Part shown: positions 10,342-14,187 of the stretch, in pieces | How positions within the stretch are numbered: the stretch's first letter is position 1 | Layout: every line of letters starts with the position of its first letter | Sequence record: PZ445529.1 | DNA: 43,663 nt | DNA from: a phage | Reading direction: 5' to 3' (one strand) | Translations under genes and position numbers: made by a program | Notes under the pieces: generated by a model | Told to the model about the DNA's origin: nothing | The model's input: only the letters and a program-made list of their open reading frames with translations | The model's database searches: none

Positions 10342-11766
10342 ATGGCACGATTCCGACGTCGCGAATATCAGAAGTTGATTACCGCGTTCATCCTCAAGCA
10401 TAAGCGATGTAATATCTGGGCGACAATGGGATCCGGGAAAACCGGCGCGACAATGTGGGCGCTGAATAAAATGTTCCAGACTGGCGTCCTGTCCCATCAT
10501 GAGGACCGCGTACTGGTGCTGGCCCCGCTGCGTGTTGCGTCAGGTACATGGCCCCCGGAACAGGAGAAATGGCGGTTCTCATCCCTGCTGGTCGTAGACG
10601 GCACCGGACCGGAGAAGGACCGTATTGCCGCGCTTGAGAGCGACGCTAACGTGGTTTGTGTTAACTACGATGTGGTTGAGTGGCTGGTTGACTATTACGG
10701 CGATGCGTGGCCCTTTACGGTCGTTGTTGCCGATGAATCGACTAAGCTGAAAGGCTATCGTAGCAAGCAAGGCAGTAAGCGCGCACGCGCACTGGCAGCG
10801 ATTGCACATAAACACGTCAAGCGCTGGATTAATCTGACCGGCACACCAGCGCCAAACGGCTTGAAAGACTTATGGGGTCAGACGTGGTTTGTCGACGGTG
10901 GCGAACGACTCGGCAGTAGTTATAAGGCATTTACCGATCGCTGGTTCATTAGCAAGCCTGTTAAGCCTGGCAGCTTCACGATGCAGCACGCTCCGCTAAA
11001 GAACTCCGAGAAAGAAATACAACAACGCCTGTCTGACGTATCACTAACCGTTGACGCTGCTGAATACTTCGGGTGCGACAAGCCAATCTATACGCCGGTT
11101 GTTGTGGACCTGCCGAAGAAAGCCCGCAAGATTTACGACCAGTTTGAAAGCGAGCTATTTGCCGAACTGGAAAGCGGAACAGTGGAAGCGGCGAACGCGG
11201 CATCGAAGACAATTAAGTGCCTTCAGCTTGCTTCCGGCGCTGTGTATAAGGTGGACGAAGACGGCGAACGGACCGACGAGTGGGTGAAGATTCACGACGC
11301 CAAACTGGACGCGCTGGAAAGTATCGTGGAGGAGTTGAACGGCGCGCCGTTGCTCGTTGCGTATCAGTACAAGCATGATCTGGCGCGTCTCAAGAAGAAA
11401 TTTCCGCACGGCGTAGCGCTGGGTAAGGGTAAGCAGGGGAATAAGGATATGGAAGCGTGGAACAGGGGCGAGATCCCCATCATGTTTGCACACCCGGCAT
11501 CCGCAGGCCACGGCCTTAACTTGCAGGACGGCGGACACCACCTGGCAATCTTCTCCGATACCTGGAACTTTGAGCACTTTTCGCAGATCGTGGAGCGTAT
11601 CGGGCCGGTTCGACAGATGCAGGCCGGACACCCTAGACCGGTATTCGTATACATTATCCAGGCGCGCGGAACACTGGATGAACTTGTCGCCGAGCGTCGC
11701 GACAGTAAGCGCGATATCCAGGACGATTTAATGGAATACATGAAAGCTAAAAAGGCGCGCAAATGA
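10342..11766 (+). CDS. SNF2/DEAD-like superfamily 2 helicase
   Basis: Walker A TMGSGKTGAT, DExx box VVVADESTKLKG; start at ATG 10342 immediately after the upstream stop. Confidence 0.75.
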   Translation: MARFRRREYQKLITAFILKHKRCNIWATMGSGKTGATMWALNKMFQTGVLSHHEDRVLVLAPLRVASGTWPPEQEKWRFSSLLVVDGTGPEKDRIAALESDANVVCVNYDVVEWLVDYYGDAWPFTVVVADESTKLKGYRSKQGSKRARALAAIAHKHVKRWINLTGTPAPNGLKDLWGQTWFVDGGERLGSSYKAFTDRWFISKPVKPGSFTMQHAPLKNSEKEIQQRLSDVSLTVDAAEYFGCDKPIYTPVVVDLPKKARKIYDQFESELFAELESGTVEAANAASKTIKCLQLASGAVYKVDEDGERTDEWVKIHDAKLDALESIVEELNGAPLLVAYQYKHDLARLKKKFPHGVALGKGKQGNKDMEAWNRGEIPIMFAHPASAGHGLNLQDGGHHLAIFSDTWNFEHFSQIVERIGPVRQMQAGHPRPVFVYIIQARGTLDELVAERRDSKRDIQDDLMEYMKAKKARK

Positions 11767-12053
11767 TAATCTGGTCATTGTTTGACGGCAGCGGCTTGAT
11801 GATTGAGCGTGCTGCCGAGATGGGGCATAAGTGTTATTGCTTCAACTACTCCGAAGCCGATCACGGGTCGTACCTTGACTACCGTATTTATGGTCGCGGA
11901 ATCCGGTATCGCAATGAGTTTATCGATCTGGACTTCGTGGACCGCGCGATGAATGGCGATTTCGGTACGCCAGATATCATCTATGCATTCCCTCCGTGCA
12001 CGGATCTAGCTGTGAGCGGTGCGCACCGCGAAGATCGCAGCTTACCTGGGTGA
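11763..12053 (+). CDS. C5-cytosine methyltransferase-like, N-terminal segment (motif I FDGSG, motif IV-like FPPC); frame ends at 12053
   Basis: SLFDGSGLM and AFPPCTDLAVSG resemble C5-MTase motifs I and IV; ATG overlaps SNF2 stop (ATGA). Confidence 0.5.
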   Translation: MIIWSLFDGSGLMIERAAEMGHKCYCFNYSEADHGSYLDYRIYGRGIRYRNEFIDLDFVDRAMNGDFGTPDIIYAFPPCTDLAVSGAHREDRSLPG

Positions 12054-12402
12054 CTTCTTCGAAGTGCCATATATGATTGAGAATCCGCGCAGTGTGCTTT
12101 CCACCCAGTGGCGTAAGCCGGACCACTCGTTTGATCCGTGGGAGTATGGGGGATATCTGCCGGAGGATGACGTACACCCGCTCTTCCCGGAATACATCAA
12201 CGCCCGCGATTCATATCCGAAGCTGACCTGCTTATGGACCGGCAACGGCTTCCGTATGCCTGAGAAAAAGCCTGTATTCGTTGAAAAAGGGTACTCGAAG
12301 CAGTATAGTCGCCTCGGAGGCAAATCAGCCCGCACAAAATTAATCCGGTCGCTCACCCCGCGCGGCTTCGCGATAGCAGTCAATGAGGAAAATTTAGAAT
12401 GA
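12019..12402 (+). CDS. C5-cytosine methyltransferase-like, C-terminal segment in +1 frame (motif VI-like ENP)
   Basis: VPYMIENPRS resembles the ENV motif; frame is open only from 12016; overlaps upstream segment by about 35 nt, suggesting a frame disruption or recoding. Confidence 0.45.
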   Translation: MRTAKIAAYLGDFFEVPYMIENPRSVLSTQWRKPDHSFDPWEYGGYLPEDDVHPLFPEYINARDSYPKLTCLWTGNGFRMPEKKPVFVEKGYSKQYSRLGGKSARTKLIRSLTPRGFAIAVNEENLE

Positions 12403-12722
12403 ACACTACATTCGAAGCCATCGATTTTTCGGTTGCAATGACTAACCAGTTATTCTCCTACGACAGCAAAACCGGCGTCATTCGTCTGAAGTCCACCGGC
12501 TGCAAAATTGGCAACATCAATACTGCCGATGGAGGCACCCGTATCGAATGCAATGGTAAGACGCTGTCGGGCGCGCGCGTGGCGTGGATTATTGAGACGG
12601 GCAATACAATCCCCCCGGGCTTCGCCGTAGTGTGTCGCCAGCGCACACCAGGGCACTACGGCAACCGAATCAGCAATCTGTATCTGGTAGACGTTGCACG
12701 CGATCCGAATTTTTATTCGTAA
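12399..12722 (+). CDS. HNH-type homing-endonuclease-like protein (NUMOD4-like + HNH-like region, possibly degenerate)
   Basis: 107 aa; YDSKTGVIRLKSTGCKIGN...ECNGK and GHYGNRISNLYLV resemble phage HNH endonuclease motifs; RBS GAGGA. Confidence 0.5.
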   Translation: MNTTFEAIDFSVAMTNQLFSYDSKTGVIRLKSTGCKIGNINTADGGTRIECNGKTLSGARVAWIIETGNTIPPGFAVVCRQRTPGHYGNRISNLYLVDVARDPNFYS

Positions 12723-12727
12723 ATTGG

Positions 12728-12756
12728 TTGCATAACCATATTGGTTGCATTATATT
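12728..12756 (+). promoter_or_regulatory. sigma70-like promoter (-35 TTGCAT, 17-bp spacer, -10 TATATT) built on two direct ATTGGTTGCAT copies
   Basis: aaattggttgcataaccatattggttgcattatatt; contains TGGTT-gcat-AACCA inverted repeat. Confidence 0.5.
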
Positions 12757-12758
12757 GA

Positions 12759-12783
12759 GGGTGTCCGGTTGGACGCCCTTTTT
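12759..12783 (+). terminator. leader hairpin/attenuator (gggtgtcc-ggtt-ggacgccc + TTTTT) between promoter and gene start
   Basis: 7 of 8 bp stem followed by T-run, lying after the promoter and before the ATG at 12803. Confidence 0.45.
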
Positions 12784-12802
12784 AATAACTGGAGACAGTG
12801 CG

Positions 12803-13054
12803 ATGAAATCATTATTTTTCGACTACGACGGCGACCTTCGATTTTGGGTGCTCCTCACCCTCATGATTGCCGTTTGTGTTTGCGTACCTGCCGCGGGTGT
12901 CGCGGGTGTCTACTACTCGGAACGCTACGAATGCCGGACTGTGTACGCAGAGCAAACAGGTCGCAACACCCAATGGCGCTATGGTGTCTGCTGGGTAGAG
13001 ATGGACGGCAAATTTATTCCACGCGATGAAATCCGCACTACGGAGACTAAATAG
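12803..13054 (+). CDS. small membrane protein (83 aa)
   Basis: ATG 12803 with RBS GGAGA; hydrophobic helix FWVLLTLMIAVCVCVPAAGVAGV. Confidence 0.5.
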   Translation: MKSLFFDYDGDLRFWVLLTLMIAVCVCVPAAGVAGVYYSERYECRTVYAEQTGRNTQWRYGVCWVEMDGKFIPRDEIRTTETK

Positions 13055-13510
13055 ATGAAAATTTTACAAGAAGAAAAAGATTACTGGGCCGCGCAATGCC
13101 TCGAAGCCCGCGAACAGGCCGAACGGGCTAACTCGGTGGCGGACACCAACCAGGCGCTATATGAAGGAGAGAAGAAAGTGCGCCGGGAGTTAGAGGAACG
13201 CTTCGAACTGCTTTTCGAATTGATGGGGATTATGCAGCGCACCGGGTACACAACCAGCGTTGCGCTAAACCGCGTCACGGCTGATGCGTTGCGCGAGCAT
13301 TGCAAACGGGCCGAGGAATACGTGCGCTCGAAGGGCCGCCAGTCTTCGATCGCCCGGAAAGACCTTGTGCTCATGGCGTGGCGCAACCCTACAAACGGCA
13401 GCATCTACCCGAACGCGCGCCCGCTTAGTGTCGAAGAAGCAAAGCGCGTCATCAATAAAGGTGGTAAGACTCCACTTTATGCGATAGACACCGACCATGC
13501 AGAAGAGTGA
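13055..13510 (+). CDS. hypothetical protein (151 aa)
   Basis: ORF abutting upstream stop; RBS GGAGA. Confidence 0.5.
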   Translation: MKILQEEKDYWAAQCLEAREQAERANSVADTNQALYEGEKKVRRELEERFELLFELMGIMQRTGYTTSVALNRVTADALREHCKRAEEYVRSKGRQSSIARKDLVLMAWRNPTNGSIYPNARPLSVEEAKRVINKGGKTPLYAIDTDHAEE

Positions 13511-13982
13511 GCAAAAAGATAGCTGGCGCACGCCGCCAGCTTTATTTAAACCGCTGCGCCGTAAGTTCCGATTCCGTTACGATATGGCGGCGAGCGACGC
13601 CAATCATCTGCTACCGCGTTACTTCACGGCAGAGCACAGCGCGCTTGATGTGGACTGGGCAGAGTTGAAAGGGTGGAAGTGGTGCAATCCGCCGTATTCC
13701 GATCCGTTGCCGTGGGTGGAATGCGCAGCGCACGGACGACGTACTGTCATGCTGCTGAATCAGGACACGTCGACGAAGTGGGCGAAGTTGGCCCGGAAGA
13801 CTGCAAACCTGATAATTCTTCTGGACTGGCGTATTAGATTCATTCACGCCGTCACCGGCGAAGTCGGTCCGAGCAATAACAAGTGCCAGCAATTGATAAT
13901 CTTTGACGAAGCGCCACCAATCGGCAGCGCACAAATTGAAATAATGAGCGAAGGAGAACTCCTTGAATATCTTAATCGTTGA
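13497..13982 (+). CDS. phage Dam-type DNA N6-adenine methyltransferase
   Basis: 161 aa; N-terminal WRTPPALF and catalytic NPPYS motifs of the phage Dam family. Confidence 0.8.
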   Translation: MQKSEQKDSWRTPPALFKPLRRKFRFRYDMAASDANHLLPRYFTAEHSALDVDWAELKGWKWCNPPYSDPLPWVECAAHGRRTVMLLNQDTSTKWAKLARKTANLIILLDWRIRFIHAVTGEVGPSNNKCQQLIIFDEAPPIGSAQIEIMSEGELLEYLNR

Positions 13983-14187
13983 CCGCGACCCCGCGGTAGT
14001 AGACCAAATGCAAAAAGACTTCTGCATCGACCCACGCCGCGATCGTGTGCGTCGCGTGTCGCGGCCTGAATACCTTCTGGGCCTGGACCTTACCGGCTGG
14101 CTTGTCATGACTCAGCGTTGCCATTTCGTGTGTAACTCCTTCACCGCGCGCAGCGCCCGATACACCCTTATTGAGAGCTTAAAATGA
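13963..14187 (+). CDS. hypothetical protein (74 aa), TTG start
   Basis: ORF with AAGGAG 6 nt upstream of TTG; overlaps Dam 3' end. Confidence 0.3.
   Translation: MNILIVDRDPAVVDQMQKDFCIDPRRDRVRRVSRPEYLLGLDLTGWLVMTQRCHFVCNSFTARSARYTLIESLK

What the first reader, a model, noticed from the sequence alone, without database searches (positions are those of the whole stretch)
11763..12722. C5-methyltransferase-like gene split across two frames, followed by an HNH-like gene
Motif I (SLFDGSG) and a motif IV-like FPPC are in the first frame, which stops at 12053. A motif VI-like ENP follows in the +1 frame, which is open only from 12016. The combined product of about 220 aa would be a very compact C5-MTase lacking an obvious target-recognition domain. 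This could be a pseudogene, a sequencing indel or programmed recoding. The next gene encodes a NUMOD4/HNH-like protein whose catalytic His motif looks degenerate. The phage also has an intact Dam-type MTase (13497-13982).
Basis: partly seen in the sequence, partly recalled or inferred. Interest (0 to 1): 0.45.

Follow-up and report, generated by a model that had tools for sequence, protein, structure and literature searches.

The report
Phage cytosine methyltransferase gene broken by deletion
This E. coli phage carries a dead copy of a small cytosine-methyltransferase gene, broken by a 56-base deletion between two 9-base repeats; this is ordinary gene decay, and the same gene is broken in other ways in several related phages.

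Summary
ORF 11763-12053 carries FDGSG and FPPC. ORF 12019-12402, in the +1 frame that is open from 12016, carries ENP. They are the two halves of one gene.

The window is a Dhillonvirus (HK578-like coliphage). Its relatives have one intact 696-nt, 231-aa gene at this position. The window lacks 56 nt of it. In intact relatives the missing segment is bounded by a 9-bp direct repeat, GCGGTGCGC, spaced exactly 56 nt apart. That points to repeat-mediated deletion, not a homopolymer sequencing error or evolved recoding.

The deletion shifts the frame and removes a conserved stretch of about 17 residues, including one invariant lysine. The gene is most likely dead.

Only phage Bas84 has the same junction, on a different haplotype. 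Window and Bas84 differ by 29 synonymous changes and 1 nonsynonymous change. So the deletion is recent and probably arose independently in each.

At least eight other lesions hit this gene in related genomes: nonsense mutations, several other repeat-bounded deletions and a duplication.

The downstream 107-aa ORF is only remotely HNH-like and lacks the canonical catalytic histidine. The Dam gene is intact.

The parts
10342..11766 (+). SNF2-family DNA helicase gene. Its stop overlaps the methyltransferase start (ATGA).
   Evidence: Pfam SNF2-rel_dom, E 1.6e-10. Relatives annotate a 1425-nt helicase CDS that ends at this overlap.
11763..12053 (+). N-terminal fragment of the broken C5-methyltransferase-like gene. 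It encodes 87 native residues (motif I FDGSG, catalytic-loop FPPC), then 9 out-of-frame residues (HREDRSLPG) and a TGA stop.
   Evidence: phrog_757 profile positions 15-93, E 5e-27.
12016..12024 (+). The single surviving copy of the 9-bp direct repeat GCGGTGCGC. The deletion junction lies at 12015|12016. Intact relatives have a second copy 56 nt upstream of this one, and that copy plus the intervening sequence is what the window lacks.
   Evidence: Alignment with jat and Bas84 and with SM_S22, AV129 and L2P5. The repeat finder on SM_S22 reports GCGGTGCGC twice, spaced 56 nt.
12019..12402 (+). C-terminal fragment of the same gene in the +1 frame (frame open from 12016). It contains motif VI ENP, the QWRK segment and SLTPRGFA. 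There is no convincing Shine-Dalgarno before GTG 12019 or ATG 12073.
   Evidence: phrog_757 profile positions 106-218, E 9e-46. Identical in amino-acid sequence to the intact homologues except the last residue.
12399..12722 (+). 107-aa Dhillonvirus-specific ORF, remotely HNH_3-like. The canonical Asp-His position is occupied by Cys79/Arg80/Gln81. It has its own GAGGA Shine-Dalgarno at 12385-12389.
   Evidence: phrog_99, E 1.6e-16. Pfam HNH_3 at 13 bits, below the 24.8 cut-off. Only 6 homologue clusters. R80 and Q81 are invariant. AF2 mean pLDDT 74.6, with no significant PDB fold match.
12758..12782 (+). Hairpin GGGTGTCC-GGTT-GGACGCCC followed by TTTTT. Probably the terminator that closes the helicase / methyltransferase / HNH-like gene block.
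   Evidence: Read directly. A 'terminator' feature is annotated under the same match in phages CS16 and PTXU06. The scan did not flag it.
13497..13982 (+). Intact Dam-type N6-adenine DNA methyltransferase gene.
   Evidence: PF05869, E 1.3e-35.

Best explanation
The two ORFs are the remains of one accessory gene for a compact protein of about 231 aa with a C5-cytosine DNA methyltransferase fold. The gene sits between the SNF2 helicase gene and the HNH-like gene in Dhillonvirus phages.

In this phage a 56-bp segment has been lost. The loss fits slippage or illegitimate recombination between two copies of the 9-bp direct repeat GCGGTGCGC, with one copy remaining at 12016-12024. Because 56 is not a multiple of three, the frame shifts and translation stops at 12053.

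About 17 residues that form the helix after the catalytic Cys loop are missing. They include one invariant lysine and four nearly invariant residues. The gene is therefore most likely a recent loss-of-function pseudogene. I infer that the phage makes no C5-methylated DNA of its own and keeps only Dam-type adenine methylation.

Shown here: the deletion, its repeat boundaries, the fold and the recent timing. Inferred: loss of activity, the slippage mechanism, and independent origin from the Bas84 deletion.
For: **One gene, normally continuous.**
- 156 GenBank phage records match the region. Relatives such as jat and SM_S22 carry a continuous 696-nt ORF.
- The window aligns to that ORF with a single 56-nt gap.

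**Repeat-bounded deletion.**
- SM_S22 has the perfect repeat GCGGTGCGC twice, spaced exactly 56 nt.
- The same junction occurs in the independently isolated phage Bas84. There the pieces are annotated as two 'DNA methyltransferase' CDSs.

**Loss of conserved residues.**
- The missing residues include invariant K98 and nearly invariant F95, P103, Q106 and A109 of a 117-sequence family alignment.
- They lie in helices 89-101 and 105-123 of the AF2 model, which has mean pLDDT 90.5.

**Recent and probably independent origin.**
- Window versus Bas84: 29 synonymous and 1 nonsynonymous difference, pN/pS 0.01.
- The Bas84 gene is closest to the undeleted L2P5 gene (8 differences). The window gene is closest to the undeleted jat gene (22 differences). 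Window and Bas84 differ at 30 sites.

**The gene decays repeatedly in this genus.**
- Nonsense codons in AV129 and in ENA contig L039.
- Deletions of 10, 108 and 213 bp, each bounded by direct repeats of 5 to 9 bp.
- A roughly 510-bp in-frame deletion in Opt212, Teewinot and a Logan contig.
- A tandem duplication in L2P5.

**Fold.**
- Foldseek matches DNMT3A/B at E about 1e-6.
- 70 of 117 family members touch PF00145 at E <= 1, best 1.3e-6.
Against: - No reads are available, so I cannot formally exclude an assembly error or a minority variant in the stock.
- The two fragments have accumulated essentially no amino-acid changes. That is also what continued function of a split protein would predict.
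- No member of this family has been biochemically characterised in the literature I could search. 'Loss of m5C' therefore presumes an activity that has never been shown.
- Independent origin from the Bas84 deletion could be mimicked by an old deletion followed by recombination in the flanks.
Confidence: 0.88

Rival explanations
1. Sequencing or assembly artefact: the real phage genome has the intact 696-nt gene, and the 56 nt were lost in assembly or consensus calling.
For: There is no read evidence for the window. The exact ORF1 product is not found in any other public assembly.
Against: - The gap is 56 nt, not a homopolymer slip.
- It is bounded by a 9-bp repeat, which is too short to collapse a modern assembly.
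- The identical junction exists in the independently sequenced phage Bas84.
- Several other repeat-bounded deletions occur in the same gene in unrelated samples. Such deletions are therefore real biology in this genus.
Confidence: 0.05
2. The gene is still functional. Either a +1 ribosomal frameshift occurs at the ORF1 stop (CCT GGG TGA C, where the +1 frame reads GGT GAC = ...GDFFEV), or the two fragments assemble as a two-subunit methyltransferase.
For: - The ORFs overlap by 35 nt.
- The ORF1 stop is a weak UGA-C, and a +1 shift there would enter the ORF2 frame.
- Both halves are free of further damage.
- From my own knowledge, not tested here: natural and engineered split C5 methyltransferases exist, for example M.AquI.
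Against: - The arrangement exists in only 2 of more than 150 relatives and arose by a recent deletion. It is therefore not an evolved recoding site.
- Any fused product would still lack invariant K98 and nearly invariant F95, P103, Q106 and A109, and would carry 9 foreign residues.
- There is no Shine-Dalgarno-like stimulator upstream of the stop, and none before GTG 12019 or ATG 12073.
- The lack of further damage is explained equally well by the deletion being recent. Other lineages show frank nonsense mutations and large deletions, so the gene is dispensable.
Confidence: 0.04
3. The 56-bp deletion is a single old event inherited by both the window phage and Bas84, or passed between them by recombination. 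It is not a recurrent hotspot.
For: The junction sequence is identical in both. Dhillonviruses are mosaic, and the helicase region upstream is 93-98% identical between the window and Bas84.
Against: - The flanks differ within 10 nt on both sides of the junction.
- Bas84 clusters with undeleted L2P5 and the window with undeleted jat.
- 29 of the 30 window-Bas84 differences are synonymous. That is not expected if the sequence had drifted as a pseudogene since a shared deletion.
Confidence: 0.25

Closest known systems
Split 'DNA methyltransferase' genes Bas84_0037 and Bas84_0036 of Escherichia phage JohannBuxtorf_Bas84 (PQ850611)
   Same: Same genus, same gene, same 56-bp deletion junction and same two-ORF outcome (291 nt plus the C-terminal piece).
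   Different: About 5% nucleotide divergence within the gene (30 differences), and a different flanking haplotype. Probably an independent event.
Intact Dhillonvirus 'C-5 cytosine-specific DNA methylase / Dcm-like' gene, for example phage jat gp32 (QHR76412.1), Sodalis phage SO-1 gp32, HK578
   Same: The orthologous locus between the SNF2 helicase and the HNH-like ORF. Amino-acid sequence outside the deletion is more than 98% identical.
   Different: The window copy lacks 56 nt and is frameshifted.
Canonical C5-cytosine DNA methyltransferases (Pfam PF00145: M.HhaI, M.HaeIII, DNMT3A/B catalytic domain)
   Different: - About 231 aa, against 327 aa for M.HhaI and about 280 aa for the DNMT3 catalytic domain.
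- No canonical target-recognition domain.
- The intact jat protein gives no PF00145 hit.
- No sequence-level PDB hit, even with a family profile.
- Target and specificity are unknown.
HNH_3 (PF13392) phage homing-endonuclease-like proteins, phrog_99
   Same: The 107-aa ORF matches phrog_99 (E 1.6e-16). It also shows the '(H)R..W...G..ip.G' and 'NR..NL' signatures.
   Different: - Below the Pfam threshold.
- The canonical Asp-His is replaced by Cys/Arg/Gln.
- The first His is replaced by Ala.
- No significant fold match.
- Restricted to Dhillonvirus.

Membership tests
C5-cytosine DNA methyltransferase (PF00145 superfamily) | Motif I FxGxG (AdoMet binding) | tested here: met
   FDGSG at the start of ORF1. 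F12, G14, S15 and G16 are nearly invariant in the 117-sequence family alignment.
C5-cytosine DNA methyltransferase (PF00145 superfamily) | Motif IV Pro-Cys catalytic nucleophile | tested here: met
   FPPC in ORF1. P82, P83 and C84 are invariant.
C5-cytosine DNA methyltransferase (PF00145 superfamily) | Motif VI ENV | tested here: met
   ENP in ORF2. E130, N131 and P132 are invariant.
C5-cytosine DNA methyltransferase (PF00145 superfamily) | Motif VIII QxRxR and motifs IX/X | tested here: inconclusive
   There is a QWRK segment (W140 invariant, R141 nearly invariant) and an SLTPRGFA segment that resembles motif IX. The spacing differs from M.HhaI, and I had no residue-level structural alignment.
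C5-cytosine DNA methyltransferase (PF00145 superfamily) | Target-recognition domain between motifs VIII and IX | tested here: not met
   The protein is 231 aa. Only a coil-rich stretch of about 45 residues (model residues about 156-202) occupies that position. Family lengths are 220-260 aa across 803 clusters at 50% identity.
C5-cytosine DNA methyltransferase (PF00145 superfamily) | Pfam PF00145 gathering score (22 bits) | tested here: not met
   ORF1 scores 11.6 bits, E 0.18. The intact jat protein gives no hit at E <= 10. 70 of 117 relatives hit at E <= 1, best 1.3e-6.
C5-cytosine DNA methyltransferase (PF00145 superfamily) | C5-methyltransferase fold | tested here: met
C5-cytosine DNA methyltransferase (PF00145 superfamily) | Continuous reading frame in this genome | tested here: not met
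   A 56-nt deletion, a frameshift and a stop at 12053.
C5-cytosine DNA methyltransferase (PF00145 superfamily) | Demonstrated m5C formation in DNA | not testable with these tools
   I found no biochemical report for this family.
HNH endonuclease (HNH_3, PF13392) | Pfam gathering score (24.8 bits) | tested here: not met
   13 bits, E 0.08. Only profile positions 5-21 of 46 align, and the alignment stops just before the catalytic Asp-His.
HNH endonuclease (HNH_3, PF13392) | Catalytic His of the beta-beta-alpha-metal motif | tested here: not met
   The expected position is occupied by C79/R80/Q81, and R80 and Q81 are invariant in the family. A conserved H86 lies three residues before N89 and might substitute for it, but that is unproven.
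HNH endonuclease (HNH_3, PF13392) | beta-beta-alpha-metal fold | tested here: inconclusive
   AF2 mean pLDDT 74.6 from only 7 sequences. The best Foldseek E-value is 0.9, and a few of the weak hits are HNH domains.
NUMOD4 (PF07463) | Pfam hit | tested here: not met
   No hit at E <= 1.
Dam (PF05869) N6-adenine methyltransferase | Pfam gathering score and an intact ORF | tested here: met
   123 bits against a cut-off of 28.1. The ORF is 161 aa, 13497-13982.

The most novel reading that the evidence does not exclude
The compact phage family of about 230 aa, with a C5-methyltransferase fold and no canonical target-recognition domain, may be a low-specificity or very-short-site DNA cytosine methyltransferase. 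The family has 803 clusters at 50% identity, and I found no characterised member. Its benefit (escape from restriction) would then trade off against a cost in hosts with modification-dependent defence.

That would explain a gene that is under very strong purifying selection (pN/pS about 0.01-0.04) yet repeatedly knocked out by fresh lesions in individual Dhillonvirus isolates, including this one. The GC-rich short repeats inside the gene would act as a built-in deletion hotspot.
Probability: 0.2. Interest if true: 0.45.

Novelty: already known. Interest (0 to 1): 0.18.

Why it matters
The main value is for annotation. The two ORFs should be annotated as one pseudogene, not as two methyltransferases or as a recoding candidate. 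The phage should be expected to lack its own cytosine methylation.

There is also a modest general point. An accessory methyltransferase that is strongly conserved across the genus is repeatedly lost through short-repeat deletions, at least one of which (this 56-bp deletion) appears to recur.

The intact family is a widespread, uncharacterised, minimal C5-methyltransferase scaffold. It could be worth biochemical study.

Tried and rejected
- **Programmed +1 frameshift.** Rejected. The overlap exists only because of a recent deletion found in 2 of more than 150 relatives, conserved residues are missing, and there is no stimulatory element.
- **The 56-nt segment as an insertion or mobile element in the relatives.** Rejected. 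It encodes conserved in-frame residues that are present in homologues at only 55-65% identity.
- **A stable DNA hairpin driving the slippage.** Folding the intact region as ssDNA gave z-scores of -0.1 to -0.6, no better than shuffled sequence.
- **The same junction in IMG/VR.** 0 hits.
- **The exact ORF1 product in public assemblies.** Absent. The exact ORF2 product does occur in ENA contig L039. That contig turned out to carry a different lesion, a TAT>TAG nonsense codon, and not the deletion.
- **Sequence-level PDB searches.** Neither the single protein nor the family profile gave a relevant hit.
- **Methyltransferase plus HNH-like ORF as a conserved functional pair.** Rejected. The adjacency holds only within Dhillonvirus. 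Distant family members have different neighbours, and the HNH-like ORF stays intact where the methyltransferase gene is broken.
- **Literature on the activity or specificity of this family, or on Bas84.** Nothing relevant found.
- **McrBC-type counter-selection.** I considered this only as speculation. Phages jat, mckay, bob and welsh have intact genes and list E. coli K-12 MG1655 as host in their records. If that strain was wild type it carries McrBC (my own knowledge), which argues against K-12 McrBC as the selective agent.
Full report
**1. The observation**

- ORF 11763-12053 (96 aa) begins MIIWSLFDGSG and contains AFPPC. It stops at the TGA at 12051-12053.
- The +1 frame is closed by a TGA at 12013-12015, so it is open from 12016. 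Its first start codon is the GTG at 12019.
- That frame runs to 12402 (127 aa) and contains MIENP.
- The next ORF, 12399-12722 (107 aa), overlaps the stop by ATGA. ORF1 overlaps the stop of the upstream SNF2 helicase gene in the same way.
- ORF 13497-13982 is an intact Dam methyltransferase (PF05869, E 1.3e-35).

The two small ORFs hit adjacent parts of a single profile, phrog_757 'DNA methyltransferase'. ORF1 matches positions 15-93 (E 5e-27) and ORF2 matches positions 106-218 (E 9e-46). They are two halves of one gene, with about a dozen profile positions missing between them.

**2. What the window is, and what is missing**

The region matches 156 GenBank phage records at about 90-95% identity. 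Nearly all are Escherichia or Shigella Dhillonvirus phages (HK578-like), plus Sodalis phage SO-1. Over its first 25 kb the window is about 92% identical to its nearest relatives.

In phage jat the helicase gene is followed by one 696-nt CDS of 231 aa, annotated 'C-5 cytosine-specific DNA methylase'. The 324-nt 'putative HNH endonuclease' CDS comes next.

The window aligns to the jat gene with a single 56-nt gap and is otherwise about 96% identical. The missing segment in jat reads GCGGCGCGCCAGC...CAGCTTAAG and is followed by GCGGTGCGC. In SM_S22 and L2P5 the two boundary copies are a perfect 9-bp direct repeat, GCGGTGCGC. The repeat finder reports them exactly 56 nt apart.

The window keeps one copy, at 12016-12024. 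This is the signature of slipped-strand or illegitimate recombination between short direct repeats.
- It is not a homopolymer-type sequencing indel.
- The 56 nt are not an insertion in the relatives. They encode in-frame residues (PAFPRKRAKDPAFQLKA) that are conserved in homologues at only 55-65% identity.

**3. Consequence for the protein**

In a 117-sequence family alignment the lost stretch contains invariant K98 and nearly invariant F95, P103, Q106 and A109.

The AlphaFold model of the intact protein has mean pLDDT 90.5 and pTM 0.89. In that model the lost residues form most of helix 89-101 and the start of helix 105-123. These helices link the catalytic Pro-Cys strand to the ENP strand.

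ORF1 therefore encodes 87 native residues and a 9-residue out-of-frame tail. ORF2 has no convincing ribosome-binding site before GTG 12019 or ATG 12073. I infer loss of function. This is not demonstrated.

**4. Is it really a C5-methyltransferase?**

The intact jat protein gives no Pfam hit at all and no NCBIfam hit. Neither the single sequence nor the family profile finds a relevant solved structure by sequence.

Three lines of evidence still support the fold-level assignment.
- 70 of 117 close family members touch PF00145 at E <= 1, best 1.3e-6.
- Foldseek's best PDB matches are the DNMT3A/3B catalytic domains at E about 1e-6.

FxGxG, PPC and ENP are invariant or nearly so.

The family is large: 2902 hits in one search, and 803 clusters at 50% identity. 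Lengths are uniformly 220-260 aa. Compactness and the absence of a canonical target-recognition domain are therefore family traits, not truncation.

I found no report of the activity or specificity of any member. The BASEL paper (PMC8594841) notes only that no simple link was found between methyltransferase genes and restriction resistance in the related Drexlerviridae.

**5. How common is the deletion, and how old?**

A 111-nt probe across the junction matched full-length in one piece in only one GenBank record, phage JohannBuxtorf_Bas84. All other records matched only the downstream half. In Bas84 the gene is annotated as two 'DNA methyltransferase' CDSs. The junction is absent from IMG/VR. 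All 14 Dhillonvirus-like IMG/VR copies are intact.

The window and Bas84 carry the deletion on different haplotypes.
- Within the gene, Bas84 differs from undeleted L2P5 at 8 sites.
- The window differs from undeleted jat at 22 sites.
- The window and Bas84 differ from each other at 30 sites.
- SNPs differ within 10 nt on both sides of the junction.

Of the 30 window-Bas84 differences, 29 are synonymous (pN/pS 0.01). All pairwise comparisons give pN/pS of 0.01-0.04. Nearly all of the divergence therefore accumulated while the gene was under strong purifying selection. The deletion must be recent in each lineage, and it most likely arose twice at the same repeat pair. Recombination cannot be fully excluded, and I give shared ancestry about 25%.

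**6. The gene decays repeatedly in this genus**

Other independent lesions found in passing:
- AV129 has GAG>TAG in the ENP glutamate codon.
- ENA contig L039 has TAT>TAG just before FPPC.
- L036 has a 10-bp deletion between GCGAT repeats.
- L037 has a 108-bp in-frame deletion between CCGCGCA repeats, which removes ENP.
- L038 has a 213-bp in-frame deletion between CGCCCGCGA repeats. That repeat pair is also reported.
- L2P5 has a tandem duplication at the same spot. That 88.6-kb record may be a mis-assembly.
- Phages Opt212 and Teewinot and a 44,281-nt Logan contig carry an in-frame deletion of about 510 bp between the GGCAGCGGCTT and GGCAACGGCTT repeats. It leaves a 61-66-aa remnant. Two different crossover points are seen (FDGSGF and FDGNGF).
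- Further truncated gene calls are P0282 to P0285.

In the disrupted genomes examined, the neighbouring helicase and HNH-like genes remain full-length, and so does Dam wherever the locus reaches it. The methyltransferase gene is thus conserved but dispensable, and the window is one more case of its loss.

Why it is lost is unknown. Counter-selection by modification-dependent restriction is a speculation. Phages with intact genes whose records list E. coli K-12 MG1655 as host argue against K-12 McrBC specifically, if that strain was wild type and so carried McrBC (my own knowledge).

**7. Rivals**

- **Assembly artefact.** I cannot exclude this without reads. It is unlikely given the length of the gap, its repeat boundaries and the independent Bas84 case.
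- **Programmed recoding or a functional split enzyme.** A +1 shift at CCT-GGG-TGA-C would indeed enter the ORF2 frame. But the configuration is a recent accident in 2 of more than 150 genomes, there is no stimulatory signal, and the product would lack conserved residues.
- **A DNA hairpin promoting slippage.** Folding gave z-scores of -0.1 to -0.6, no better than shuffled sequence.

**8. The HNH-like ORF**

- It matches phrog_99 'HNH endonuclease' (E 1.6e-16). Pfam HNH_3 scores 13 bits against a cut-off of 24.8, and the alignment ends just before the catalytic Asp-His. There is no NUMOD4 hit.
- Only six homologue clusters exist, all Dhillonvirus-like.
- In their alignment the expected Asp-His position is C79/R80/Q81, with R80 and Q81 invariant. 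The usual 'HR' is 'AR'. H86 and the NR..NL signature are conserved except in the frameshifted SSL-2009a copy.
- The AF2 model is mediocre (mean pLDDT 74.6) and has no significant PDB fold match.

Whether the protein is a nuclease is open. It is not a conserved partner of the methyltransferase, because distant members of the methyltransferase family have other neighbours.

**9. Verdict**

This is a real and correctly observed feature with an ordinary explanation. It is a recent pseudogene of a known, widely annotated phage C5-methyltransferase-like gene, created by a 56-bp deletion between short repeats. The same state is already present, and annotated as two CDSs, in GenBank phage Bas84.

Minor points of interest are the apparent recurrence of the same deletion, the repeated decay of a gene that is otherwise strongly constrained, and the fact that this minimal C5-methyltransferase family remains uncharacterised.

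Noticed in passing
window 12723-12804: The intergenic region after the HNH-like ORF contains ATTGGTTGCAT twice in direct repeat. A hairpin follows (GGGTGTCC-GGTT-GGACGCCC + TTTTT, 12758-12782). A 'terminator' feature is annotated at the equivalent place in phages CS16 and PTXU06, but the consensus scan did not flag it. TTGCAT-17 nt-TATATT within the repeats also looks promoter-like.
   Followed up: partly
window 12805-13054: A small ORF (83 aa from the ATG at 12805, hydrophobic N-terminal half) is present in the window, jat and AV129. It is absent from Bas84 and SM_S22, where the HNH-like gene is followed directly by the 151-154-aa ORF. Some records label that ORF 'DNA ligase', which looks doubtful for a protein of that size.
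   Followed up: no
window 13282-14099 versus L002 (Bas84): Identity to Bas84 drops to 65-82% across the Dam gene and downstream, while the flanks are above 92%. This is a mosaic exchange of the Dam module.
   Followed up: no
L005 (PQ843332, phage P-GXEC-L2P5) about 2038-2964: The record is 88.6 kb, about twice the genome size. It carries a tandem duplication of about 77 nt inside the methyltransferase gene, right next to the 56-bp deletion hotspot. This is either a real duplication or an assembly artefact.
   Followed up: partly
proteins P0279, P0280 and P0290 (phages Opt212 and Teewinot, and a 44,281-nt Logan contig): An in-frame deletion of about 510 bp joins FDGSG to (TGNG)FRMPEK via the repeats GGCAGCGGCTT and GGCAACGGCTT (window 11787-11797 and 12243-12253). 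It leaves a 61-66-aa remnant ORF. Two crossover variants (FDGSGF and FDGNGF) imply at least two events. The contig length equals that of phage UAE_MI-01, one of the window's closest relatives.
   Followed up: partly
L017 (IMG/VR copy of Escherichia phage SSL-2009a) 2199-2450; protein P0275: The HNH-like ORF of SSL-2009a is itself frameshifted near its C-terminus. That small gene also shows occasional decay.
   Followed up: no
L019-L035 (IMG/VR contigs of 25-59 kb): Members of the compact methyltransferase family at 33-58% identity sit in T1-like-sized phage contigs with different neighbours. There is no SNF2 helicase, HNH-like ORF or Dam within 1.5 kb.
   Followed up: partly
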